DNA of 32,000 nt from Candidatus Saccharimonadota bacterium (GTDB taxonomy: Bacteria > Bacillota_I > Bacilli_A > Mycoplasmatales > Hepatoplasmataceae), in NCBI RefSeq assembly GCF_000582535.1, contig NZ_CP006932.1, forward strand, positions 270,001 through 302,000, read 5' to 3'. This document shows positions 1 to 13,763 of this stretch, piece by piece. The notes beneath the pieces were generated by a model, which did no database searches, was not told the origin of the DNA, and saw only the letters and a program-made list of their open reading frames with translations. The position numbers and the translations under genes were made by a program. How positions within the stretch are numbered: position 1 is the stretch's first letter; each line of letters opens with the position of its first letter.

Positions 1-1290
1 AGATTTAGAAATTGAATCAATCGTAGATTTAGAATTTTCGGCAGATGGTAATACAAATGGAGCAATTGTCGATACTAATGGTGATCAAAATGGTGACGCT
101 ATTTATATGTGAGGACAAAATAATAATTATCAAATTGGTGATGGAACAACTACAGATAAATTTTCACCTGTAGAAATTACACCACAAGGTGAAAGCGATT
201 GAGGGGGAGATATAATTAATTTGGAAATCGCTCAATTATTTAGTGGTGCTACCGTTGACACTAATTATGATGGTTATGCCGATACACTTTATTTATGAGG
301 TAGTAATTATCGTGGTGAAATTGGAAATGGAGAAACAAGTGGATCAATTTCAACTCCTCAAATTATTACACCACAAGGTGAAACAAATTGAGATGGTAAT
401 ATCATAGATTTTTCATTGATGTATGCAAATACAGCTGTTTTAATTGATACTGATTATGATGGATATGGTGATTTAATTTATGGTTGAGGTGAAAATATTA
501 ATTATGAAATATCACCTAAAGATGATAATACAATTTTATATCCTGAAATAATTGCTCCAGAAGATAATGATTGAGGCGGAAATATTATTGATTTAAAATT
601 AGGTTCTCGATTTGGTGGAGTAACTGTTGATAGTAATTATGATGGTCTTGCAGATATGCTTTATATGTGAGGAGATAATAGTTATGGAGAACTTGGAATA
701 GGTGCATCACCTCAATATTCTCAATATCCTACAATAATTAACCCAGGATCTGGTAGTTGAGGTGGTGATATTATAGATTTTACACTTGGATTTTTTAATT
801 CAGGTTTATTAATAGATACCAATTCAGATGGAATAGGAGATTTAATTTATAGTTGAGGACAAAATAATTATGGTCAACTTGGTGATGGTACAAAAGTAAT
901 TAAATATTCTCCAAAAGTAATTACTCCTAGTTCAGGTGATTGAGGCGGAAATATTCTTCAATTTGAAAAAGGAAGTTATACTTCTAGTGTAATAATAGAT
1001 TCTGATTTAAATGGATCAGGAGATCTACTTTATATGTGAGGACAAAATGGTAATGGTCAATTAGGAGCAGGAACAACAAGCGATATTTCTGTTCCAACAA
1101 TTGTTTACCCTGAAGGTCAATCATCTTGACCCGGACCTATTTATTCATTATCAAATGGATTTAGTAGTACCGGTGTAATTACCGATAATAATAATGATGA
1201 TCTTATTGATAGTTTTTATGCATGTGGAAATGATAACTACGGACAATTAGGAAATGGAAATAGTGATAGCAATATTGATCAATTATATTT
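1..1290 (+). repeat. Seven tandem intragenic repeats of about 183-186 nt that encode the propeller blades
   Basis: The block ..D(T/S)N.DG.(A/G)D.LY.WG.N.YG.LG.G....P..I.P.G...W.G.IID.. recurs. The WG dipeptide recurs at a spacing of 183-189 nt. Confidence 0.85.
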
Positions 1291-3538
1291 TATAGTTATT
1301 TATTCTACAGATTCTGCTTCTATTGCTAGTTTAGATTTTATTTATGATGATAATCAATTATTTATTGATTTAAAATTATATGATTATAGTAATGTAATAA
1401 ATAGTGATCCTACTGTTTTATTAATAGATAATGGAGATACTAATTATACAACAACTTTTATTTCTTCAAATTCAGATATTTCTAATGATCAATATTATTA
1501 TCAGGTGAATGGAATTGAACGAGGAACACACTATTATTTTAATGAAATAATAATTAATGATGTTGCTTCTGCTATTTCAGAAGATATAATAACCGACTAT
1601 ATCATTCCTGATTATTCTATAAAATCAGTAACTGAGCAAACAGCTACAATTGATTTAAATTTGAGCGAAAATAATAATGTAGATTTTAGTGATTATACAA
1701 ATGAAGAATTAAAAGTAAAAGTAAATTATACTGATCTTGACCAAAATGATTCTTATAATCAAGAATTTACACTTAATAGTTTAATATCTAATCAAGATCT
1801 TACAATTAGTAGTTCAGCAGAAGTTGAATTAACTAATTTAAAAGCAGAAACAAATTATCAAATAGATTCAATTCAGTATTTCTATCAAAATGGAAGTTAT
1901 ATATATCAAATTAATCAATCTGCTACAAGATTTCAAACTCAATCTGTTCAACCAGAAATTCAAGGTGCAACAAGTTTAGTAATAGATGAAACAATAACTT
2001 CAAATTCATTTCAATATACAATTGAAATAGATAATCTAATTCCTAATGCTGATAATACTAATTTTACAAATTATGATGTAAATGATGGTTTATGATTAAT
2101 GGATGAAGACGGATACATTTATAAATCAACTTTTATTACAAAAGAATTTTATCAAAATGATAATTATAGTAATGTTTCTGCTGATAATAGTTATGATTAT
2201 ATAATTACTTATGAAGTAAATGGACTAGGTCCAGGTGAATATTTATTTAATGGAATTAGCTTTGAGCAACCATTAAATCCTCTTGATTCTAATATAGTTA
2301 CTTTAAATCCTCCAATGGATGTAATAATACCTGATGATGGATATGTAGATCCAGTAGTTCTTGGTAGTACTTTTGCAGTTTCTAGTGTTGCACCTACATC
2401 ATTTCAATATAGAATTAGTTTAGATGACTTAATGTTAACAGGAAGCGTTGGTAGCGAACCAGAATTTGCTAATTTTGATCAAGCGGACGGACTTTATTTA
2501 AAAGATAGCAATCAAAATACTTATCATTCAGAATATGTACCAAAAACTGCTGTTTATCAAGGTAGTGGAACATCTGTTGGATCAGAAAGATACCAATTTA
2601 CTTTTGAAGTAAGTGATTTAGTACCAGATACTGATTATGAATTTGATTCTATAAGTCCTAACCAAAATGGACCATTTACACCTATAGAAAATGGAGAAGT
2701 TCATACAGATGCATCTAGTAGTGATTGCGATTGTCCTTGCTGATTATGATGACTTATGTTATTACTATTATTATTAATTTTAATTTTAGTAATCATAATA
2801 TTAATACAAGGTGATTCTAGTAAAGAAAAAAGTAAAAAGAAAGAAAAAATAACAAAAGAAGAAAAGGTTAATAAAAAAGAAGATAAAGCAAATGATGAAG
2901 ATAAAATAAAAGAAGAAGAAAAAAACTTAACAATTTATAATATTGAACAAAATCAACCTAAAAAAGAAGGTGGTTCTGAAAATTCTGAATTAATAGATAA
3001 ATTAACAACAGAAATTTTAGAATTATCTGAAAAGGTAGATGATTTAAATAATAAAAATAAACCAGTAGAAAAAGAAAAAACAAAAGCAAAATCAAGTAAA
3101 AAAAGAAAAAGTAAAAAAACAAAAGCAAAAACAGAAAAACCTGATGATACAAATAAATTAACTGAAGAAATTTCAGAATTATCAAAAATTGTAAGAAAAA
3201 TAGATGAAGAGAATAGAGATATTAAAATTAATATTGAAGAAATTCATAATTCAGGAAATAATAATACTTCACAAAATAAAAAGAAAAAAGCAAAAAAACC
3301 TAATAAAACAGAACAATTAACTGAGGAAGTATTAGAATTATCAAAAATTGTAAAAAAATTACATAATTCAGGAAATAATAATAATAATAAACCTGTTTCT
3401 AAAAAATCAAGAAAAAATAATGAAACAAAAAAAATATCATCAGAAATTTCAGAATTATCAAAAATTGTAAAAGAAATTAATAAAGAAAATAAAGATATTA
3501 AAAAAGATATCAAAGAAATTAATAAAAAAAAAAAGTAA
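1..3538 (+). CDS. Large surface-anchored protein, 5' end cut by the window edge (roughly 30 codons missing). It has a seven-blade RCC1-like beta-propeller, four Fn3/Ig-like modules, a single C-terminal TM helix and a ~260-aa Lys/Glu-rich cytoplasmic tail.
   Basis: The frame starting at nt 2 is open to TAA 3536-3538 once TGA is read as Trp. Track ORFs 1505..2095, 2099..2743 and 2756..3538 are all in this frame and are separated only by TGA codons. Seven blades carry (Y/L)(M/L/G/S)WG.N.YG(Q/E)(L/I)G.G, with the WG at about nt 104, 291, 480, 663, 850, 1033 and 1220. L..(E/D)T.Y.(I/F)DSI tyrosine-corner-like motifs occur at about 1840-1880 and 2620-2660. The hydrophobic stretch WLWWLMLLLLLLILILVIIILIQ lies at 2741-2809. 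The protein is colinear with the minus-strand paralog 8663..11551. Confidence 0.85.
2995..3470 (+). repeat. Four copies of an amphipathic L(T/S)(T/E)E(I/V)(L/S)ELS(K/E)(I/K)V motif in the cytoplasmic tail
   Basis: The near-identical nucleotide block gaattatcaaaaattgta ends at about 3192, 3351 and 3469. A diverged copy, gaattatctgaaaaggta, lies at about 3020-3037. The peptides are KLTTEILELSEKV, KLTEEISELSKIV, QLTEEVLELSKIV and KISSEISELSKIV. Confidence 0.8.
3524..3534 (+). repeat. A11 homopolymer that forms an A_AAA_AAG slippery heptamer directly in front of the TAA stop
   Basis: The sequence aat aaa aaa aaa aag taa spans 3521-3538. The -1 frame reads gta att cct aaa aag ... and stays open to TAA 3673-3675. 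Confidence 0.9.
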
Positions 3539-3676: not shown

Positions 3677-4447
3677 ATGGTAAAAATAATAAACAAAAAA
3701 AAATCAAAAAATACTTTTGTTATTGATGGTCTTATTAATAGTAATGAAAAAATTTCAAAAATAATTAAAAAAGCAAAAAAAAAGAATATAAAATCTGTTT
3801 CTCTTCTTATTAATTATGATCAAGAAAAAGCAACCAATAAGAAGAAAAAAGTAATAAGAAGAAAAAATAATAAAAAACAACAAAATAATAAAAATTTACA
3901 AATAAAAAATATTGCTTATAATCAAGAAAAAGAAATTAATAAAGAATTAAAACTTCTTCCTGCAAATGCTTCTATTTCTAAAGAAAAAGAAAACACAAAT
4001 AAGAATTCTTTTGATAAAAATATTAAAAAGGAAATTAATCCTTTAAAACAAAACGAAGAAATAATAAATAGTAATAAAACAATTGGAGAAATAATTGAAC
4101 AAGCAGATAAAAATAACGTAAAATCTATTTCAATTACTATTAATTATCAAAAAGTAAACAAAAAAAGAAAAAGAAAACATTATAATAATTCAAATAATAA
4201 TAATCCAAAAAATAATCAAGATAATAAAGATAAAAAAATAGATCAGAGTATAAATAATAAAGCTGAAAATCAAGAAAAAGAATCAATATCAAATAATCAA
4301 GATGTTCCTAAAATAGAAGAAGAAAATATCGAAATTAAAGATTTAAATACAGAAGAATTAAGAATTTTTAAAATCAGAAAATCAAAATATGTAAAAATCT
4401 CTAATCCTAATAAATATTTTTCATCTGATAAAAATAGAAAAAAGTAG
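3677..4447 (+). CDS. Highly basic Lys/Asn-rich protein (256 aa) with an internal duplication; function unknown
   Basis: This is an intact ATG..TAG ORF with no TGA. The duplicated segment is INSNEKISKIIKKAKKKNIKSVSLLINY versus INSNKTIGEIIEQADKNNVKSISITINY. The protein contains KKRKRKH and no hydrophobic segment. It is followed by a strong hairpin terminator. Confidence 0.6.
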   Translation: MVKIINKKKSKNTFVIDGLINSNEKISKIIKKAKKKNIKSVSLLINYDQEKATNKKKKVIRRKNNKKQQNNKNLQIKNIAYNQEKEINKELKLLPANASISKEKENTNKNSFDKNIKKEINPLKQNEEIINSNKTIGEIIEQADKNNVKSISITINYQKVNKKRKRKHYNNSNNNNPKNNQDNKDKKIDQSINNKAENQEKESISNNQDVPKIEEENIEIKDLNTEELRIFKIRKSKYVKISNPNKYFSSDKNRKK

Positions 4448-4454
4448 GAAATTA

Positions 4455-4497
4455 AACAATAAAAAAAAGACAATTAATTTGTCTTTTTTTTATTGTT
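4455..4497. terminator. Bidirectional rho-independent terminator between two convergent genes
   Basis: A perfect 19-bp inverted repeat: aacaataaaaaaaagacaa (4455-4473), loop ttaat, ttgtcttttttttattgtt (4479-4497). U-runs are present on both strands. It lies between the stop at 4447 (+) and the stop at 4504 (-). Confidence 0.8.
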
Positions 4498-4503
4498 AGA
4501 AGA

Positions 4504-4893
4504 TTATTTCATTGCTTTTTTATCTTCGATTTTGCAGTTTTCACCTTCACATTTTTCTAAATGTTTTTGAAAGTGTTTTTTAAGATCTTCTTTGCATTCT
4601 TTGCATTCATTTCCACAATGTTTTTGATTGCATTCTTTGCATTTTTTACATTTATCTTTGCAATTTGATAATTTGCATTCTTTGCATTCCTTGCATTTAT
4701 CACAATTGCATTTTTCTCCATGATCTTTACATTTGCTGCATTTATTATTACAACTATTTATAATACATTCTTTGCATTCCTTGCATTCATCATTACAATT
4801 TTTATCTTTGCATTCCTTGCATTTTTTACAAGCTTCGCTTTCAAAATGCTTATCTTCATCTTTATTTTTAGTTTTTTTTCAAAAATTAAACAT
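4504..4893 (-). CDS. Cysteine-rich, lysine-rich small protein (129 aa, 24 Cys); candidate metallothionein-like or Csp-like metal-binding protein
   Basis: Absent from the supplied track because codon 5 is TGA (Trp). Hand translation: MFNFWKKTKNKDEDKHFESEACKKCKECKDKNCNDECKECKECIINSCNNKCSKCKDHGEKCNCDKCKECKECKLSNCKDKCKKCKECNQKHCGNECKECKEDLKKHFQKHLEKCEGENCKIEDKKAMK, ending in a stop. The length is 390 nt, exactly 130 codons. An AGGA lies at 4903-4906 (minus sense) upstream of the ATG at 4893-4891. The gene ends at the bidirectional terminator. There is no signal peptide or TM segment. Confidence 0.75.
4590..4827 (-). repeat. Dispersed direct repeats of TTTGCATTC(C/T)TTGCAT (plus strand), encoding CKECKEC modules
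   Basis: Copies lie at about 4590-4608, 4628-4647, 4672-4698, 4767-4789 and 4806-4827. All are inside the Cys-rich CDS. Confidence 0.85.
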
Positions 4894-4976
4894 ATTTTAT
4901 ATTCCTTTTTATTATATTAAATGTTAATTAAATTATATTTTATATATCAATTAAATAAAAATATAATAATTTTTAT
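4894..4976 (-). promoter_or_regulatory. Intergenic region with candidate promoter elements for the Cys-rich gene
   Basis: This 83-nt gap follows the SDR stop. Minus-sense TATAAT matches lie at 4932-4937 and 4911-4916, and the AGGA RBS lies at 4903-4906. TATAAT matches are common by chance in DNA this AT-rich. Confidence 0.3.
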
Positions 4977-5738
4977 TTAATGAATTTTAAAATAATTATT
5001 TAATAAATGTATTTTATCTTCTTTTGAATCTACTATTCCAATTGTATAATCACTTTCATAAAGCTTAAAGAAAAAATCAATAAGTTTTTCAATAGATTTC
5101 TGTTTATTTTTTTTATTTATAATTAATTTATTTTTTTCTTTTTGTGAAATATTTGCATAATTTAACATTTCTTCTAATGATTCACTCTCTGTAGAAGAAG
5201 GAGCTAATACTTGTACTTTTAATTTGTAATTTTTATTTTCAAGATTTTTTGCTATTCCTTCGCTAAAAGTAGAGACAAAAAATTTACTGCTCGAATAAAT
5301 TATTTCATCTAGTAAAATTTCAAATCCTACAGTAGAAGAGATATTTATTAATTTCTTATTTTTATTTAAATTATCTTTTATAAACATAATTGAAAGTAAA
5401 GTTAATGCTTTAATATTAAGATCAATTAAATTTGCAATTCTTTTAATATTAGAATTTCAAGGATCATTGTGTTCACCAATTCCAGCATTATTAATAAATG
5501 TTTTGATATTATATTTTTTAATTGTTTCATAAAATTTAATTACATTATCTTCGATTGATAAATCATAAATAAAAACTAATACTTTTATTTTATATTTACT
5601 CTCTAATTCTTTTTGAAGATTTTCTAACAATTCTTTTCTTCTTGCAACAATAATTAAGTTTTCTTTTCTTTCTGCAAATGATTTTGCAAGTCCTTTTCCA
5701 ATTCCTGAACTTGCACCTGTAATTAATATATATTCCAT
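4977..5738 (-). CDS. Short-chain dehydrogenase/reductase (classical SDR), 253 aa
   Basis: Track ORFs 5457..5738 and 4977..5387 join in frame through TGA 5457-5459. The motifs are TGASSGIG (TGxxxGxG), NNAGIG and YSSSK (YxxxK). The length is 762 nt, 254 codons. Confidence 0.85.
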
Positions 5739-5759: not shown

Positions 5760-6338
5760 TTAAAATTTTAATATTTCATTGATTTCTTTTTCTAATTTAT
5801 TATCAATTTTTTCTTTGCTGTCAACATTTAATGGATTTTTAAATAATATATTATCAATTTCATTCGTATTTTTATAAAATATTTTTGTTTTTTCAATTTC
5901 TGGTTTAATTTTTTTTATAATTTGATTTACTGAATTTAATATTTTATTATCAATTTTTTCTTTGCTGTCAACATTTAATCGATTTTCAGATAATATATTA
6001 ACCTTTTCATTCGTATTTTCAGCAAGTTCTTTTGTTTTTTTTATAATTTGATTTACTGAATTTAATATTTTATTTATATTTTCTGTTTGCTCAGTATTAT
6101 ATTCAAGATCTGTTTTTGAATCTTTTGCAATTATAATTGCAATTGAAAATGATAATAAAGCAATAATTGAAGAAAAGAAAAATTCAATTCAAACAATCCA
6201 ATCATTATTTGTAGAAGGAATAAATTTTGTTAAAGATAAAAAGAATATAATAAATCAAATTACTATAATTGTTCAAAATCACCATTTTGAAATAAGTCAT
6301 TTTATATTATTTAAAAAATTATTCTTATTTTTTTTCAT
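5760..6338 (-). CDS. Membrane protein with two TM helices and a C-terminal tandemly duplicated coiled-coil-like segment (192 aa)
   Basis: Invisible in the track because it has six in-frame TGA codons among its first ~50 codons. The translation begins MKKNKNNFLNNIKWLISKWWFWTIIVIWFIIFFLSLTKFIPSTNNDWIVWIEFFFSSIIALLSFSIAIIIAKDSKTD. It then carries two copies of ILNSVNQIIKK...NTNE..NIL..N.LNVDSKEKIDNK. The length is 579 nt, 193 codons. Its ATG lies 1 nt after the upstream gene's stop. Confidence 0.65.
5798..6075 (-). repeat. Intragenic tandem duplication of about 147 nt (49 codons)
   Basis: The block atcaattttttctttgctgtcaacatttaat occurs at about 5802 and 5949. The block tttttttataatttgatttactgaatttaatatttt occurs at about 5912 and 6038. 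Confidence 0.85.
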
Positions 6339-8662: not shown

Positions 8663-11551
8663 TTATTCAAAATCAGAATTAAGTTTTTCTTCCATTTCTT
8701 TTGTTCTTCTTTTCATTTTTAAATCAATTAATAATAAAATTATAGCCAATAATATAATTATTATTAAAATAATAATTATTATATAAATAATTATTTTTGT
8801 TGATATATTATTATCTGTTTTAATTTCTCCTGATCCAGAAATATCTAAAAATTCATTATTAAAATTATTTGTAAAACTAATTTTTGTAAAATTATATGTT
8901 TTATTCGCTTCTAAATCAGAAACATTAAATATAAATTGATATTTTACTGTTCCTGATTCATTTCCTTCACCAATTAAAGAAGAACTACCTAAAATATAGT
9001 CTGCATCATATATATTTCCTTGATCATCTTGTAAATATAATTTATCATTTTGATTAAAATTACTAAAAATTGGTTCATTTTCTGAATCATTTTCAATATA
9101 AATTAGATTATCAATTGTAATTTGAAAATTAAAAGAATTAGTTGTAATTGAATTTGGATCAATAAAAAATGAATTATCAACAAATTCTTTATTTATTATT
9201 AATGTTTCAATTTGAAGTGGAGTAGTGAAATTTATTGTATCAGGATTAGATCCATTTGGATCATTAAAACCAATTCCAGAAAAATTATAAATTTGTCCCG
9301 AAATTAAATCTTCTTGTAAAAAAGTTAATTGATAATTTTGTGTTCCATTAATTTCTCCATTTGTAATTAATTTTGCATCAACAAAAGAAGAATTATAACT
9401 TTCGCCATTTTCATCAATTAATCAAATGCCATTATTTATATCATATTGTGTAAAATTATCTTTTGTTTCATTTTCTTTTAAATTATCAATTTCAATTGTA
9501 TATTCAAAAGAATTTGTTGTAATTGAGTTATTAATTATTGAAATTGAATCAGCTTCAATTATTGGTGTTGCCGGAATTGTTTGAAATTGTGTTACTTCTT
9601 GATCAATTTGATATTTATAATTTCCATCTTCATAAAAATATTGAATTGAATCAATTTGATAATTTGTTTCTGCATTTAAATTATCAATGGTAGTTTGATA
9701 AGAATTATCGATAATAAATTCTTTATAATAAATATTATTATTATCAAGATTTGTATAATTTACTTTTACTTTTCTTTGATCATTTGTGTAATTATCAATA
9801 TTAAAATTATTACTATTTTGACTAGTATCTAAATCTATAATTGCTTCTTCTTCATTGATATTTGAAATTTGATATCCAGAAATTAAATAATCAGTATTTA
9901 TTTCTTCTAAACTGATATCAAAAATATTATTATTTATTAATATTTGTGTGAAATTATAACTATTAGCATATTCAATATTATCAATTTGATAGTAATATTG
10001 ATCATCATCAACATTAGATTTATCAGTAATAAAAGTTGTTTGATATTGAATATCATTTTGATCAATTAATATTACTTCTGGTCCTTCATTTATAATATTT
10101 TGATAGTCATCTAATTTAATATCTAATTCAATATTATTTTCCTCATAATAATTTAAATTTATACTTTTAAGAAGAAAACTATAACTTGAAGTGATTAATT
10201 CTGGATGATTTTTACTTTCTGTTGTTCCATTACCAAATTGTCCATAATTATTATATCCCCACATGTATAAAGTATCAGCGTATCCATCTAAATCATTATC
10301 AATTATTACTCCTATATTTTCTCCACCCAAAGATATGTCAATAATATTACCATTTCAATCATCTTGTCCTTCTGGTGTTATTATTGTAGGATTGCTTACT
10401 TTACTACCAAGATTACTTCCGATTTGTCCATAATCATTATTTCCTCATTCATAAAGAATATCCCCAAATCCATCATTATTTATATCAATTGCTGCTGATG
10501 AATTCGTACCCTCTAAAGATAAATCAATTATATTACCATTTCAATCATCTTGTCCTTCTGGTGTTATTATTGTTGGATAATTTACTTTACTAGGATTATT
10601 ACCAACTTGTCCATAACTATTATATCCCCACATGTATAAAGTATCAGCATACTCATCATTATTAACATCAATTGCAAGACTAGAATGAGAACTACCTAAT
10701 TCTAAATCGATTAAATTTCCATCTCAATAATCTTGATTTTGTGGAGTTATTATTGTTGGATAATATTCATTATTATTTGTTCCATCACCAAGTTGACCAT
10801 AATTATTTTGTCCTCACATATAAAGAGTATCGCCATATCCATCATAATTTGTATCAATAGTAATTCCAGAATGACTACCACCTAAAGATAAATCGATTAT
10901 ATTACCATTTCAATCATCTTGCTCTTCTGGTGTTATTAGTGTAGGAATAGATCTATTATATGTTGTTCCATCACCAATTTTTCCATTACTATTATTTCCT
11001 CACATATATAATGTATCTGCATATCCATCTAAATTAGTATCAATTGTAATTCCTAAATGATTATAGCCAATATCGAAATCAATTATATTACCATTTCAAT
11101 CACCATTTGTTGGTGTTATGATTTGTGGATTATATTTATCAACCTTATTAATTGCATTTCCTCACATATATAATGTATCTGCATATCCATCTAAATTAGT
11201 ATCAATTGTAACACCAGATTGCGAAGAACCTAATGAAAAATCGATTATATTTCCGTTTCAATCATCTTGTCCTTGTGGAGTAATAATTATTGGATTTAAT
11301 ATAGGATCACTTACTTCGCCATTTCCTATTTGCCCATTGCTATTATCTCCTCACATATAAAGCGTATCGGCGTATCCATCATCATTAGTATCAACTGTCA
11401 TTCCTGTATTTGATCCACTCAAATCAAGAAGAATAATCTTATCATTTTGATTTATCTTTACTTCGTTATTAAAATTTAAAAAAGATAAATTATTATTACT
11501 AAAACCAAAAAACAATATTGAAATAAAAAACAATATTATATATTTTTTCAT
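8663..11551 (-). CDS. Surface-anchored protein (962 aa) with a signal peptide, seven-blade RCC1-like propeller, Fn3/Ig-like modules, a C-terminal TM helix and a short basic tail. It is a paralog of <1..3538.
   Basis: I translated the entire minus frame by hand. It is open from ATG 11551 to TAA 8665-8663 (2889 nt, 963 codons), with TGA or TGG as Trp. The N-terminus is MKKYIILFFISILFFGFSNNN. Seven LY(M/E)WG blades are present. The C-terminus is ...KIIIYIIIIIILIIIIILLAIILLLIDLKMKRRTKEMEEKLNSDFE. NYQIDSIQYFYEDGNYKYQIDQ matches NYQIDSIQYFYQNGSYIYQINQ in the plus-strand copy. Confidence 0.9.
10200..11410 (-). repeat. Seven tandem intragenic blade repeats of about 180 nt
   Basis: The plus-strand strings cctcacat, ccccacat or cctcattc (the complement of ..WG) occur at about 11349, 11159, 10999, 10811, 10626, 10443 and 10258. 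Confidence 0.85.
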
Positions 11552-11593: not shown

Positions 11594-12490
11594 TTAATCA
11601 CGTTTTTCAAAAAAATTATTTAAAAAATGGCTTACCCCATTATTATTATTATCGTATTCTGTAACATATTCTGCAATTTCTTTTATTTCATCTAATCCAT
11701 TTATCATAGCAACACCATGATTTGCGTTTTTAATCATCTCATAATCATTTAAATTATCACCAATTGTAATTATATTTTCTTTTTTGATTTTGTATTTATC
11801 CGCAATAAATAAAATTGAAGTTCATTTATTATATTTTTTATTATTTATTTCTAAAATCATTGATTCACCAATATTTTCTCTTCAAAATCAAAGATTTAAA
11901 CTTTTATTATATTTTTCCTTTAATTTTTCTAAAATTTTTAGAATTTTTTCTTGTTCATTTTGATTCACTTTAAGATGCATATAAGTACTAATTGGTTCTT
12001 CGATTTCTTTTTTTAAATCTAATTTTTCAATTTTAAATTTAGGAAATTTTGAATATAAATCAAAAAGTAATTTATCATTTAAATTTTCAATTTTTACATA
12101 ATCTTTATATTTGAAAATAAAATTATATTTAAATTTTTTTAATAAATTTTCATTTGCAATTTTTTTTAAGTCCTTAAGATTAATAGTTTCATTTAAAAGA
12201 ATTTTATTTTTCTTAGGTATAGAAATATAACATCCGTTAAAATTTGAGAGAATGATATTTAAATTTATATTATTAAATAATTCTTCTGATGATTTTAAGC
12301 TTCTTCCTGTTGCAATTACTACTTTGTGACCTTTTTTAATTAATCTATCTAAAATTTTTATTTCCCCATCTAAAATTTGATTATTTGTTTTCTCATTATT
12401 TCAATCTTGATCTGGGATTAAAGTGCGATCAATATCTATTGCAATTAATCATTTTTCTGATTTAGAATTCAATTCAGTTTGTGTTTTCAT
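11594..12490 (-). CDS. Cof-type HAD-superfamily phosphatase (298 aa)
   Basis: Not in the track because of many TGA codons. The protein begins MKTQTELNSKSEKWLIAIDIDRTLI (DxD motif I). It contains VVIATGRS and the C-terminal GDNLNDYEMIKNANHGVAMINGLDEIKEIAEYVT motif. The length is 897 nt, 299 codons. Confidence 0.8.
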
Positions 12491-13763
12491 AAAATTTTAT
12501 TGCTTCCTTATTTGCTTTTACATATTTTTTATCAAAATTTAAAATATACATATTTTTTGGATTTTTAATTCTAGAAAGAGCTGTATATAATTGACCTTCA
12601 GCAAAAATATTTTCACAATCAATCAATAATTCACTAAGAGTCATTCCTTGTGATTTATGAATTGTAATTGCATATGCTAATTTCAAAGGAATTTGTGTAA
12701 AACTACAAATTGTTTCTCCTTTTTGATCAACTTTATTTCATGTATATTCTTTAATTTTTGTTTTATTTCCTTCTAATCATTCTACTTCTACAAAAGAGTG
12801 ATTTAGATTTTTAACAATTCCAATTGAACCATTTATAATCTTATCTTCTTTTTTATTTATAAGCGACATTACTTTTGCCCCTTTTTTGAGAATTAATTTT
12901 TTTGGAATAATAGTTATCTCTTTTTGATACTCTTCAATTATTTGTTTTTTTCTTTCAAGATATTTTTCATCTACTTCAAAATAAGAATTATAAATGTGCT
13001 CTTTTTCTTTTATTTTATTTAAATTATTATTATTAATGTTATCGGCTGATTGGTTTGTTGATACTAATTTCGTAATTTCTTTTTGATTGTTTAATTCTTT
13101 CTTTTCAATAAATTTAAAATAATTCTCTGTTTCTTGATCATAATTTCCATTTCTAATTTTCTGTAAATTTTCAATATATTTTTGATCTATTTGCCGAAAG
13201 TTTTTTGTTAATTTAATATATTTAATGTTGATTTGATTTCAAATTTTTGATTTAAAAATTCATTTTTCATCAAGGTTTTCCCCTTGATAATTTTTAATAA
13301 CAGGAGGTAATTGTAAAAAATCACCAAACATTATTATTTTTATTCCGCCAAATTTTTGATTATTTCCTTTTGCTTTTTGTAATAAAAGATCTATTAATTC
13401 AAAATAATCACTTTTAACCATTGAAATTTCATCAATAATTAAAACATCTGTATTTTTAATTTGTTTTTCTTTGATTTTTCATCTACGATTATTTCTTCCT
13501 GTTATAATTGGAAAATGATCTTTATGATCGTAATTTAAATTTCCTAAATAGTAATTTAATGTTGTTCCTTCAAATATTGTTGCGGAGATTCCTGTAGAAG
13601 AAGTAAAAAAAGCATTAATTCCTTTTTCTCTAAAATAAGTTTTTAATTTTATCAAAAGTGTTGTTTTTCCACTTCCAGCATGTCCTGTAATAAAATAAAA
13701 ATTACTTTCATTTTTCTCATAAATTTTCTTAAATTTTTCTAAATAATCATTTTTTTTGTTCAT
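12462..13763 (-). CDS. PIF1/RecD-like superfamily-1 DNA helicase (433 aa)
   Basis: Track ORFs 13479..13763 and 12474..12686 are its ends, joined through TGA codons. The track's TGA stop at 12474-12476 is Trp, and the real TAA is at 12462-12464. The motifs are Walker A GHAGSGKTT, Walker B DEISM, GDFLQLPPV and TIHKSQGMT. The length is 1302 nt, 434 codons. Confidence 0.8.

What the first reader, a model, noticed from the sequence alone, without database searches (positions are those of the whole stretch)
4504..4893. Hidden 129-aa cysteine-rich protein that looks like a metallothionein or Csp-type metal store
**Detection.** The gene is invisible under the standard code, because codon 5 is TGA and there is no downstream ATG. 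The track instead shows two antisense shadow ORFs over this locus.

**Composition (hand counts).** It has 24 Cys, about 36 Lys and 5 His in 129 residues. No aromatic residue occurs between roughly residues 18 and 107. The Cys residues fall into about six modules of the form C-x3-C-x2-C-x2-C or C-x2-C-x2-C, for example CNDECKECKEC, CKDKCKKCKEC and CDKCKECKEC.

**Comparison with known families.** Lys-flanked CxC/CxxC arrays without aromatics are the compositional hallmark of metallothioneins. The i, i+3/i+4 Cys spacing and the ~130-aa size are also compatible with the helical Cys-lined bundles of copper storage proteins (Csp1/Csp3, DUF326).

**Context.** The gene has its own RBS, an 83-nt upstream gap and a strong terminator. 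I am not aware of a protein of this kind described in Mollicutes, whose proteomes are generally Cys-poor. That statement rests on my memory, not on a search.
Basis: partly seen in the sequence, partly recalled or inferred. Interest (0 to 1): 0.88.

Follow-up and report, generated by a model that had tools for sequence, protein, structure and literature searches.

The report
Lineage-restricted metallothionein-like protein in Hepatoplasma
A woodlouse gut-gland bacterium with a tiny genome carries a real, selectively maintained gene for a 129-residue protein that is one-fifth cysteine, has no detectable relatives outside its own lineage, and most likely soaks up copper or zinc in the most copper-rich animal tissue known.

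Summary
On the minus strand, 4893->4504 encodes a 129-aa protein under code 4 (TGA=Trp, codon 5) with 24 Cys, 36 Lys and 5 His. It has six 15-aa modules (C-x3-C-x2-C-x2-C), an RBS, a conserved -10 box and a terminator hairpin.

The window is Candidatus Hepatoplasma crinochetorum Av, a mollicute of the isopod hepatopancreas.

The gene is real:
- Orthologs sit directly downstream of the same SDR gene in four further distinct sequences.
- 21 of 22 Cys columns are invariant, against 35 of 90 other columns.
- Cys codons swap TGT/TGC freely.
- dN/dS is 0.25-0.34, the lowest of all six frames.

No homolog was found anywhere else (Pfam, NCBIfam, PHROGs, PDB by sequence and fold, 1.84 billion representatives). 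One caveat applies: the protein collection lacks even this protein.

Csp/DUF326 membership was tested and failed (hhalign probability 0.25%). The Cys spacing and hydrophobic content also differ from Csp3.

Best reading (about 0.6): a cytosolic thiolate-cluster metal buffer for Cu(I)/Zn/Cd, metallothionein-like in function. It probably arose from a (TGC-AAA-GAA)n repeat and suits a niche holding about 5,000 µg Cu per g.

It is hidden only under table 11. Accession numbering implies a CDS is already annotated at this locus. No metal binding or expression was shown.

The parts
4504..4893 (-). CDS of the 129-aa Cys-rich protein (ATG 4893-4891, stop TAA 4506-4504), read with genetic code 4
   Evidence: Translation. 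Code 4 shown by 102 TGA against 5 TGG. Orthologs keep the frame, and dN/dS of 0.25-0.34 is the lowest of six frames.
4879..4881 (-). In-frame TGA (Trp5), which hides the ORF under the standard code
   Evidence: The orthologs carry TGA at codon 2 (MW...).
4594..4830 (-). Cys array, residues 22-100: six 15-aa modules of consensus C-x3-C-x2-C-x2-C-x4. His58 and Asp/Glu103 stand in the fourth-Cys position of modules 3 and 6.
   Evidence: Cys positions and gaps. Periods of 9, 45 and 90 nt. Module layout. 21 of 22 Cys columns and H58 are invariant.
4507..4557 (-). Av-lineage C-terminal extension (residues 113-129, with two extra Cys, C115 and C120). It is absent from the Ps-type orthologs, whose 3' UTR still aligns with it.
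   Evidence: In-frame 'NCKI' relic after the Ps stop codon.
4903..4907 (-). Ribosome-binding site AAGGA, 9 nt upstream of the ATG
   Evidence: GAGGAA or AAGGAA at the same place in all orthologs.
4926..4938 (-). Invariant 13-nt block ATATAATTTAATT containing a TATAAT -10 box (4932-4937). It is the putative own promoter; the -35 element is weak.
   Evidence: Identical in all five upstream regions, which otherwise diverge. The consensus scan did not score it, for lack of a -35 element. Promoter function is inferred.
4455..4497 (.). Terminator hairpin with a perfect 19-bp stem and 5-nt loop, shared with the convergent gene 3677-4447
   Evidence: -19.1 kcal/mol, z = -8.7. The orthologs have a different hairpin followed by a U-tract at the same place. 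It fails the generic terminator scan because the stem is A+T-rich.
4977..5738 (-). Upstream SDR-family oxidoreductase (AHK22359.1). It is the only neighbour conserved in all lineages. The gap is 83 nt with no hairpin, so co-transcription is possible.

Best explanation
The locus encodes a cytosolic, metallothionein-like metal buffer of Candidatus Hepatoplasma crinochetorum.

**Proposed mechanism.** The 129-aa protein has no signal peptide and no membrane segment. It carries 22 conserved Cys plus conserved His (H16, H58, H107), arranged in six tandem C-x3-C-x2-C-x2-C modules. These are embedded in Lys/Glu/Asp/Asn with almost no hydrophobic residues.

The apo-protein is probably poorly ordered. 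It would fold, largely into helices, around metal-thiolate clusters. The invariant Lys next to Cys would neutralise the cluster charge.

By analogy with known thiolate-cluster proteins, capacity would be roughly 7 divalent ions (Zn/Cd) or more than 10 Cu(I) per chain. It would sequester Cu(I), Zn(II) or Cd(II) that leaks into the cell.

**Niche and origin.** The bacterium lives in the isopod hepatopancreas, an extremely Cu- and Zn-rich organ. The gene appears restricted to the H. crinochetorum clade. It looks as if it arose by expansion of a (TGC-AAA-GAA)n = (Cys-Lys-Glu)n repeat into 45-nt modules.

**Shown.** The gene is real, code 4 applies, there is purifying selection on Cys and His, the module architecture holds, no detectable homologs were found, and it is not a Csp.

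**Inferred.** Metal binding, which metal, the stoichiometry, the protective role and the de novo origin.
For: **Reality of the gene.**
- Orthologs lie directly downstream of the SDR ortholog in strain Ps (L003), L009, L010, L011 and L014.
- Between Av and Ps, all 22 Ps Cys align ungapped to Av Cys. Ten of the 22 columns are TGT/TGC synonymous swaps. Non-Cys identity is only 48%.
- 21 of 22 Cys columns are invariant, against 35 of 90 other columns. dN/dS of 0.25-0.34 is the lowest of the six frames in five pairs.
- The near-identical strain L014 differs by 6 synonymous and 3 non-synonymous changes, none in the Cys array.
- RBS, -10 block and terminator are conserved.

**Metal-ligand signature.**
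- Cys is 18.6% against a background of 0.28% (p = 3e-36). His is enriched about fourfold (p = 0.009), and H16, H58 and H107 are invariant.
- H58 occupies the slot of the fourth Cys of module 3.
- Cys-Lys dipeptides are invariant. The core has no aromatic residues and 5 of 88 hydrophobic residues.
- 49% of residues are charged, and the protein lies on the disordered side of the charge-hydropathy plot.

**Localisation.** The N-terminus is hydrophilic and there is no membrane segment (sequence).

**Expression hint.** A C-ending codon preference occurs only for Cys: TGC 15 of 24, against 3 of 29 in the other genes (p = 1e-4). The same holds in Ps (p = 3e-5). TGC is the Watson-Crick codon for the usual GCA anticodon of tRNA-Cys, which was not checked in this genome.

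**Niche.** Hepatoplasma lives in the isopod hepatopancreas (PMC3942034, PMC4536667). That organ holds about 4,800-4,900 µg Cu and 2,300-2,700 µg Zn per g dry weight. [quoted passage not shown]
Against: - There is no experimental evidence of metal binding, of a transcript or of a peptide.
- There is no homology to any metallothionein or Csp family.
- The classical metallothionein CC and CxC motifs are nearly absent: 0 CC, 1 CxC, 11 CxxC.
- No metal-homeostasis gene (CopA, CopZ, CsoR, ZntA and the like) lies in the 32-kb window. No metal-sensor operator was recognised upstream.
- The only conserved neighbour is an SDR oxidoreductase with no obvious link to metals.
- The bacterium is extracellular in the gland lumen. 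The Cu is stored in host S-cell cuprosomes, so its actual metal exposure is unknown.
- Structure models have low confidence (pLDDT 62-70, pTM 0.43).
- No adjacent ortholog was found next to the best SDR homologs of Ca. H. scabrum (L013) or L012. The trait is therefore not general to Hepatoplasmataceae.
Confidence: 0.6

Rival explanations
1. Structural zinc-knuckle array. The CxxC and CxxxC pairs form several Zn(Cys)4 or Zn(Cys)3His sites. These merely scaffold a basic (net +7 to +9) adaptor that binds nucleic acid, the ribosome or another protein. On this view the metal is structural, not stored or detoxified.
For: - CxxC is the dominant motif (11 occurrences).
- The net charge is positive and the protein is very Lys-rich.
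- The only PDB near-hits, though at chance level, are the DnaJ zinc-finger region and a laminin EGF domain (E about 2).
- His58 is conserved in a Cys slot.
Against: - Zinc knuckles and ribbons normally have Gly, Pro or turn residues and hydrophobic anchors around CxxC. Here the intervening residues are helix-formers (Lys, Glu), and AF2 predicts helices.
- No zinc-finger or zinc-ribbon Pfam family matches at E<=10.
- Six contiguous modules without spacer domains resemble cluster-forming metallothioneins more than independent fingers.
Confidence: 0.12
2. Thiol-based redox or electrophile sink, or a cysteine (sulfur) reserve. An abundant Cys-rich polypeptide would buffer oxidants, quinones or phenolics from leaf-litter digestion. 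Alternatively it would store Cys in an organism that probably lacks glutathione.
For: - The Cys density is extreme in a proteome with 0.28% Cys.
- The hepatopancreas is described as a distinctly oxic environment (PMC4821242).
- The conserved adjacent gene is an NAD(P)-dependent SDR oxidoreductase.
- The TGC codon preference hints at high expression.
Against: - A simple sink or reserve would not need exact conservation of 21 of 22 Cys positions and of the 3-3-5-4 register over dS of about 0.9.
- It would not need conserved His in ligand-like positions.
- The regular i+3/i+4 spacing and flanking Lys are typical of metal-thiolate proteins.
Confidence: 0.1
3. Iron-sulfur protein (polyferredoxin-like). 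The array can also be parsed as four C-x2-C-x2-C-x4-C motifs, reminiscent of the C-x2-C-x2-C-x3-C-P motif of [4Fe-4S] ferredoxins. It would carry several clusters for electron transfer or Fe-S storage.
For: Cys spacing 3,3,5 resembles 3,3,4 of ferredoxins. Iron is released into the hepatopancreas lumen (PMC4821242).
Against: - None of the many Pfam Fer4 families hits at E<=10 in four orthologs.
- There is no Pro after the fourth Cys, and the spacing is off by one.
- Cluster environments in ferredoxins are hydrophobic (Ile, Val, Ala, Gly, Pro). Here they are Lys, Glu, Asp and Asn, with 5 of 88 hydrophobic residues in the core.
- The predicted secondary structure is all helix.
Confidence: 0.07
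4. A divergent true member of the Csp (DUF326) copper-storage family: a pre-folded four-helix bundle whose core is lined by Cys and filled with Cu(I).
For: - Size (113-129 aa) and Cys count (21-24) are similar to Csp3, which has 18-19 Cys in 108-133 aa.
- Cys come at i+3/i+4 and AF2 predicts helices.
- There is a His-rich segment after the last module. hhalign's best local match, not significant, falls on the His-rich alpha3-alpha4 mouth of Csp3.
Against: - hhalign probability is 0.25% and BLASTP E is 2.1.
- Neither the single sequence nor the profile finds any Csp in the PDB. BsCsp3 finds 18 other Csp-type sequences at E of 1e-5 to 1e-16.
- There is no DUF326 hit and no Foldseek hit.
- Csp3s have a strict 4-3-4-3 heptad Cys register and 35-37% hydrophobic residues. 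Here the register is 3-3-5-4 and hydrophobic residues are 12%.
Confidence: 0.03
5. Not a functional protein. On this view it is a repeat-derived spurious ORF, or the real gene is the stop-free antisense ORF 4493-4927 (+).
For: The antisense frame is also stop-free in Av and Ps. The DNA is a 9/45-nt repeat. The sequence is absent from the protein collection.
Against: - The sense frame has the lowest dN/dS in all five pairs: 0.25-0.34, against 0.38-0.65 for the open antisense frame.
- Cys codons change only synonymously.
- An ATG start, RBS, -10 block and terminator are conserved on the minus strand.
- The module number is fixed across the four distinct lineages compared (Av, Ps, L009, L011) despite dS of about 0.9.
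Confidence: 0.02

Closest known systems
Metallothioneins in the functional sense. The closest analogies are the long, modular, tandem-repeat metallothioneins of eukaryotic microbes (ciliate MTs, Cryptococcus CMT1/CMT2). That comparison rests on my own knowledge.
   Same: Very high Cys content (about 19%). Lys conserved next to Cys. Cys-rich core free of aromatic residues and poor in hydrophobic residues. His as auxiliary ligands. No signal peptide. Built by internal duplication of a short Cys module. Charge-hydropathy values typical of a protein that folds only on metal binding.
   Different: No sequence similarity to any metallothionein family in Pfam or the PDB. CC and CxC motifs are essentially absent and CxxC and CxxxC dominate. 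The predicted secondary structure is helical rather than metallothionein-type loops. At 113-129 aa it is longer than the known bacterial MTs (SmtA/BmtA about 55 aa, MymT 53 aa; from my own knowledge).
Csp3 / Csp1 copper storage proteins (DUF326; PDB 5FIG, 5ARM, 5FJD, 6EI0)
   Same: Bacterial. Cytosolic, like Csp3. About 110-130 aa. 18-24 Cys. Cys spaced i+3/i+4 in predicted helices. A His cluster near one end. A plausible role in Cu(I) sequestration.
   Different: No homology. The Cys register is 3-3-5-4 (15-residue period) instead of the 4-3-4-3 heptad. Hydrophobic residues are 12% against 35-37%, so a stable apo bundle is unlikely. There are three long helical segments (the first kinked) rather than a clear four-helix bundle, and no Foldseek match.
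Bacterial metallothioneins SmtA/BmtA and mycobacterial MymT
   Same: Small cytosolic prokaryotic Cys- and His-rich metal-binding proteins that protect against Zn/Cd (SmtA) or Cu(I) (MymT). This rests on my own knowledge.
   Different: No sequence match (the Pfam families for prokaryotic MT were not hit). Those proteins are single-domain, about 50-56 aa with 7-9 Cys, and are not tandem-modular.

Membership tests
Csp copper storage proteins (Pfam DUF326 / Csp1, Csp3) | Detectable sequence homology to the family (DUF326 repeat or Csp sequences) | tested here: not met
   No Pfam hit at E<=10 for four orthologs. No Csp among PDB hits at E<=10 with sequence or profile. hhalign probability 0.25% and BLASTP E 2.1. 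As a positive control, BsCsp3 finds 18 other Csp-type entries at 1e-5 to 1e-16.
Csp copper storage proteins (Pfam DUF326 / Csp1, Csp3) | Cys in a heptad a/d register (alternating CxxxC and CxxC) on all four helices, pointing into the bundle core | tested here: not met
   BsCsp3 and SlCcsp gaps are 4,3,4,3,4... The candidate's are 3,3,5,4 repeated, a 15-residue period. Cys periodicity peaks at 3.0 and 3.75 residues, not 3.5.
Csp copper storage proteins (Pfam DUF326 / Csp1, Csp3) | Stable four-helix-bundle fold, also in the apo form, with a hydrophobic end | tested here: inconclusive
   AF2 predicts helices at about residues 20-27, 31-51, 65-87 and 94-106/117, but with pLDDT 62-70 and pTM 0.43. 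Foldseek finds no PDB match. 12% hydrophobic residues and the disordered side of the charge-hydropathy plot argue against a stable apo bundle.
Csp copper storage proteins (Pfam DUF326 / Csp1, Csp3) | Binds many Cu(I) ions (13-20 per monomer) through Cys thiolates | not testable with these tools
   Requires purified protein, Cu(I) titration and ICP-MS or crystallography.
Metallothionein (operational class) | Low molecular weight, high Cys content (about 15-30%), few or no aromatic residues | tested here: met
   129 aa, 18.6% Cys, aromatic residues only at 2, 4, 5, 17 and 108. The same holds in the orthologs. At about 15 kDa it is larger than most metallothioneins.
Metallothionein (operational class) | Characteristic Cys motifs (C-C, C-x-C, C-x-x-C) with conserved positions | tested here: inconclusive
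   Positions are highly conserved, with 21 of 22 columns invariant. The motif repertoire is atypical: 0 CC, 1 CxC, 11 CxxC, 4 CxxxC, 5 CxxxxC.
Metallothionein (operational class) | Membership of a sequence-defined MT family (Pfam Metallothio families, including prokaryotic SmtA-type and crustacean) | tested here: not met
   No Pfam, NCBIfam or PDB hit at E<=10.
Metallothionein (operational class) | Binds several metal ions in metal-thiolate clusters; often metal-inducible | not testable with these tools
   Needs biochemistry and expression data. No metal-sensor operator was recognised upstream.
[4Fe-4S] ferredoxin-type proteins | C-x2-C-x2-C-x3-C-P motif in a Fer4-type domain | tested here: not met
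   The spacing is C-x2-C-x2-C-x4-C without Pro. No Fer4 family is hit at E<=10.

The most novel reading that the evidence does not exclude
This would be the founding member of a new, lineage-restricted family of bacterial metal-thiolate proteins, and the first metallothionein-type protein of a Mollicute.

**Origin.** It would have been born de novo within the Hepatoplasma crinochetorum clade by expansion of a (TGC-AAA-GAA)n = (Cys-Lys-Glu)n microsatellite into six 15-residue modules.

**Selection.** It would have been fixed as an adaptation to life in the isopod hepatopancreas, the most copper-rich animal soft tissue known.

**Structure.** In its most adventurous form, the metal-loaded protein is a helical assembly. 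A 15-residue (3.75 residues per turn) Cys stripe would line a metal-filled core. That would be an architecture convergent with, but distinct from, the heptad-based Csp bundles.
Probability: 0.3. Interest if true: 0.8.

Novelty: new variant of a known kind. Interest (0 to 1): 0.62.

Why it matters
**Rarity.** Bacterial metallothionein-type proteins are rare: SmtA/BmtA, MymT and the Csps. To my knowledge, and in the literature searched, none is known from Mollicutes. Their proteomes are extremely Cys-poor (0.28% in this window).

**Genome economy.** A 657-kb genome that keeps a 19%-Cys protein under purifying selection points to a strong, specific need. The host organ stores about 0.5% of its dry weight as copper and about 0.25% as zinc.

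**Symbiosis.** The protein gives a concrete, testable molecular handle on how a gut-gland symbiont copes with host metal hoarding, or exploits it. Hepatoplasma genome papers have so far found little that explains the symbiosis.

**Metal chemistry.** It also offers a very simple, highly regular Cys scaffold, (C-x3-C-x2-C-x2-C-x4)6. This is useful for studying how metal-thiolate clusters template folding. It may be a clean example of de novo gene birth from a trinucleotide-type repeat.

**Annotation.** Code-4 genes and low-complexity proteins fall through standard pipelines and large protein collections.

Tried and rejected
**Homology searches, all negative for the Cys-rich protein.**
- Pfam and NCBIfam at E<=10 and PHROGs.
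- The word-indexed 5.8-billion-cluster search, with a single sequence and with a profile.
- Exhaustive phmmer against 1.84 billion representatives.
- PDB by sequence and by profile.
- Foldseek against the PDB with two AF2 models.

**Caveat on these negatives.** Exact look-ups show the collection lacks this protein and all its orthologs. Yet Logan gene calls exist and an NCBI accession is implied. The protein-collection negatives may therefore be partly blind, possibly through a low-complexity filter. phmmer itself detects the Av/Ps pair at E = 3e-25 for a database of 5.8 billion sequences.

**Csp hypothesis.** Tested with real Csp3 sequences and rejected.

**Antisense ORF as the real gene.** Rejected by dN/dS per frame and by the conserved signals.

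**HGT from a GC-richer donor as the cause of the TGC bias.** Rejected. Only Cys codons are shifted, while AAT/AAC, GAT/GAC and GAA/GAG remain A/T-ending.

**Helical-face argument from Cys periodicity.** Inconclusive. Power sits at periods 3.0 and 3.75, the harmonics of the 15-residue module, and is nil at 3.6.

**Dead ends.**
- The NCBI gene table for the locus could not be obtained; only Logan contigs were returned.
- SRA run accessions were not found in the literature, so it is unknown whether the Logan contigs derive from RNA.
- The syntenic position next to the best SDR homologs of Ca. H. scabrum (L013) and L012 has no Cys-rich ORF. Those SDRs (57-58% identity) may be paralogs, and the rest of those genomes could not be scanned.
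- No tRNA gene or Rfam family lies in the window.
Full report
**1. What is at 4504-4893**

- The minus strand reads ATG (4893) ... TAA (4504), 129 sense codons with a single in-frame TGA at codon 5.
- The window uses genetic code 4. The 21 other long ORFs contain 102 TGA and only 5 TGG, and all complete ORFs end in TAA or TAG.
- Read with code 4, the product is MFNFWKKTKNKDEDKHFESEACKKCKECKDKNCNDECKECKECIINSCNNKCSKCKDHGEKCNCDKCKECKECKLSNCKDKCKKCKECNQKHCGNECKECKEDLKKHFQKHLEKCEGENCKIEDKKAMK.
- Under table 11 no ORF of 20 aa or more exists in this frame. Plus-strand shadow ORFs cover the locus.
- Cys makes up 0.28% of the other proteins of the window and 18.6% of this one (p = 3e-36). No other credible ORF in the window or in related loci is Cys-rich.

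**2. Anatomy**

- Cys-to-Cys distances run 3,3,5,4 repeatedly. This gives six 15-residue modules of consensus C-x3-C-x2-C-x2-C-x4 between residues 22 and 103.
- His58 stands at the fourth-Cys position of module 3. Asp/Glu103 stands there in module 6.
- The DNA shows nested periods of 9, 45 and 90 nt. This fits an origin from a (TGC-AAA-GAA)n = (Cys-Lys-Glu)n repeat that expanded as 45-nt units. That origin is my inference.
- AAGGA lies 9 nt upstream of the ATG. The gap to the upstream SDR gene is 83 nt.
- A perfect 19-bp inverted repeat (4455-4497) folds at -19.1 kcal/mol, z = -8.7. It also serves the convergent gene 3677-4447.
- The generic consensus scan did not flag this terminator, or a promoter with a good -35 element. 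That is unsurprising at 20% G+C.

**3. Source organism**

- Exact look-ups of neighbouring proteins identify the window as Candidatus Hepatoplasma crinochetorum Av. Examples are TrpRS AHK22373.1, Def AHK22371.1 and the hypothetical X271_00251 AHK22357.1.
- Identical DNA occurs in three independent SRA assemblies.
- The flanking genes are AHK22357.1 (X271_00251) and AHK22359.1 (the SDR), followed by AHK22360.1 (X271_00254).
- A CDS numbered X271_00252 / AHK22358.1 (RefSeq WP_025208659.1) must therefore be annotated at this locus.
- I could not retrieve that record. Neither the 129-aa sequence nor any antisense candidate is in the 15-billion-protein collection.
- The gene is thus hidden only to a standard-code reading. 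The Logan gene calls, which cope with code 4, call it at 113-129 aa.

**4. Is it a real gene? Yes**

- Using the adjacent SDR as an anchor, I recovered orthologous loci from strain Ps (L003, SDR 80% identical), L009, L010 (almost identical to Ps) and L011. A metagenome scan added L014, 97% identical to Av.
- In all of them a 113-129-aa Cys-rich ORF directly follows the SDR. It has a TGA Trp codon at position 2 or 5 and a GAGGAA or AAGGAA RBS.
- An invariant 13-nt block, ATATAATTTAATT, contains a TATAAT. A hairpin plus U-tract follows the stop codon.
- Between Av and Ps, all 22 Ps Cys align without internal gaps to Av Cys. Ten of these 22 columns differ only by TGT/TGC. Non-Cys positions are 48% identical, and the neighbouring SDR is 80% identical.
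- Across five sequences, 21 of 22 Cys columns are invariant, against 35 of 90 other columns.
- Pairwise dN/dS in the sense frame is 0.25-0.34 at dS 0.5-0.96. It is the lowest of all six frames in each of five comparisons. The stop-free antisense frame gives 0.38-0.65.
- The near-identical L014 differs by six synonymous and three non-synonymous changes, none in the array.
- The module number is the same in the four distinct lineages compared (Av, Ps, L009, L011), so the array is not a hypervariable repeat.
- H16, H58, H107 and a dozen Cys-Lys dipeptides are invariant.

**5. Relatives elsewhere: none detected, with a caveat**

- Pfam and NCBIfam gave nothing at E<=10 for Av. Pfam gave nothing for the four orthologs apart from one noise hit at E = 6.2.
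- PHROGs gave nothing.
- The word-indexed search of 5.8 billion clusters gave nothing, with a sequence or with a profile.
- Exhaustive phmmer against 1.84 billion representatives gave nothing at E<=0.001.
- PDB by sequence or profile gave only chance-level hits at E of about 2.
- HMMER can see this kind of protein. The Av/Ps pair scores E = 3e-25 for a database of 5.8 billion sequences.
- The caveat is that the collection lacks the query itself and all its orthologs. It may systematically lack such low-complexity proteins.
- The DNA-level metagenome scan is independent of that problem.
- Next to the best SDR homologs of Ca. H. scabrum (L013) and L012 (57-58% identity, possibly paralogs) there is no Cys-rich ORF. 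The rest of those genomes could not be scanned.

**6. The Csp hypothesis was tested and rejected**

- I recovered genuine Csp3 sequences from the PDB. BsCsp3 (5FIG) finds 18 other Csp-type entries at E of 1e-5 to 1e-16.
- The Hepatoplasma profile aligned to a Csp3 alignment gives hhalign probability 0.25%. BLASTP gives E = 2.1.
- Csp3s place Cys in a strict 4-3-4-3 heptad register. They have 35-37% hydrophobic residues and fall on the folded side of the charge-hydropathy plot.
- The Hepatoplasma protein has a 3-3-5-4 register, 12% hydrophobic residues and 42-49% charged residues. It falls on the disordered side.
- Csp3 features were taken from PMC5171941.
- AF2 without an alignment predicts helices at about residues 20-27, 31-51, 65-87 and 94-106/117. 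The full-length and core-only runs agree, but confidence is low (pLDDT 62 and 70, pTM 0.43).
- Foldseek finds nothing in the PDB.
- Cys periodicity has power at 3.0 and 3.75 residues and none at 3.6. The 'Cys on one helical face' argument therefore holds within a module but is not decisive.

**7. Most likely function**

The features that selection preserves are these:
- exact Cys positions;
- three His, one of them in a Cys slot;
- Lys next to Cys;
- absence of aromatic and hydrophobic residues;
- a hydrophilic N-terminus without a signal peptide.

These are the features of a cytosolic metal-thiolate cluster protein, that is, a functional metallothionein. I infer that the apo-protein is loosely structured and folds on binding Cu(I), Zn(II) or Cd(II).

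With 22 Cys and 1-3 His, capacity would be about 7 divalent ions or more than 10 Cu(I). This estimate is by analogy and was not measured.

The ecological fit is striking:
- Hepatoplasma lives in the isopod hepatopancreas (PMC3942034, PMC4536667).
- That organ holds about 4,800-4,900 µg Cu and 2,300-2,700 µg Zn per g dry weight at an unpolluted site.

Points against:
- The bacteria are extracellular and the Cu is inside host S cells.
- No metal-homeostasis gene is nearby.
- No operator was recognised upstream.
- Nothing about expression or metal binding has been shown.

I put this explanation at about 0.6. The rivals, and their grounds, are in the rival section:
- structural Zn-knuckle adaptor (0.12);
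- thiol or redox sink, or Cys reserve (0.10);
- Fe-S protein (0.07);
- true Csp member (0.03);
- no functional gene (0.02).

**8. A side observation that bears on expression**

- Cys is encoded by TGC in 15 of 24 codons here, against 3 of 29 in the other genes (p = 1e-4). In Ps it is 12 of 22 against 2 of 37 (p = 3e-5).
- Asn, Asp, Glu and Lys codons keep the genome's A/T-ending habit.
- This is therefore not a foreign-DNA signature.
- It fits selection for the Watson-Crick codon of tRNA-Cys (GCA) in a gene with very heavy Cys demand. That reading is an inference.

**9. Novelty and literature**

- The three Hepatoplasma genome papers do not mention cysteine-rich proteins, copper, zinc or metallothionein.
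- Fifteen papers contain both 'metallothionein' and 'Mollicutes'. Judging by the titles and abstracts of the 12 listed, all concern host metallothioneins.
- I class the finding as a new variant of a known kind. It is a sequence-orphan, tandem-modular, metallothionein-like protein in a Mollicute, not a member of Csp or of any sequence-defined MT family.

Noticed in passing
window 4504-4893 (-); L003 8563-8907: Cys codon usage is inverted relative to the genome. TGC is used 15 of 24 times here against 3 of 29 in the other genes (p = 1e-4). In strain Ps it is 12 of 22 against 2 of 37 (p = 3e-5). All other two-fold codons stay A/T-ending. This may reflect translational selection for the cognate tRNA-Cys codon.
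   Followed up: partly
window 4493-4927; protein collection: Accession numbering (AHK22357, AHK22359, AHK22360; X271_00251, X271_00254) implies an annotated CDS X271_00252 / AHK22358.1 at this locus. Neither the sense protein, five antisense or alternative candidates, nor any ortholog is in the 15-billion-protein collection, although Logan gene calls exist. The collection may drop such low-complexity proteins, which would weaken negative homology searches.
   Followed up: partly
window 4507-4557 (-); L003 8905-8960: The Av lineage has a 16-17-residue C-terminal extension with two extra Cys. In Ps the sequence after the stop codon still aligns with it and reads ...NCKI... in frame. So a stop codon was gained in the Ps clade or lost in the Av clade.
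   Followed up: partly
window 107-3538 (+) and 8663-11551 (-): Two large paralogous proteins (at least 1143 and 962 aa) have N-terminal RCC1-type repeats (Pfam RCC1 E = 1e-35 for the first). Each has a C-terminal hydrophobic anchor and a Lys/Glu-rich tail. They are probably surface proteins, and this repeat type is more familiar from eukaryotes (my own knowledge). The first has a CDCPC motif just before its membrane segment.
   Followed up: partly
window 3677-4447 versus L003 8990-9400, L009 2664-6181: Synteny downstream of the Cys-rich gene is not conserved. Av has a convergent Lys/Asn-rich 256-aa gene. Ps, L010 and L011 have a same-strand homolog of the window's 6340-7134 gene. L009 has type I restriction-modification genes. 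Only the SDR-Cys-rich gene pair is kept.
   Followed up: no
window 4977-5738 and the Hepatoplasma genomes: The SDR upstream of the Cys-rich gene belongs to a large paralog family in Hepatoplasma. At least six 46-54% identical copies occur per genome in Av and Ps, annotated sdh_1..5 and ydfG. That is remarkable for a genome of about 0.65 Mb.
   Followed up: no
window 5760-6338 (-): The 192-aa membrane-anchored protein X271_00254 contains an internal duplication (KILNSVNQIIKK ... NRLNVDSKEKIDNK, twice). One source labels it 'methyl-accepting chemotaxis protein', but it has no Pfam hit.
   Followed up: no
window 12462-12490: The ORFs 11594-12490 (HAD-like hydrolase) and 12462-13763 (PIF1-like helicase, Pfam E = 8e-36) overlap by 29 nt on the minus strand as called from the first start codon. 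The true start of the downstream gene may lie further in.
   Followed up: no
window 1-32000: No tRNA gene and no Rfam family at gathering threshold in 32 kb. The GC-skew sign changes near 4 kb and near 14 kb, coinciding with the switches of gene orientation.
   Followed up: no
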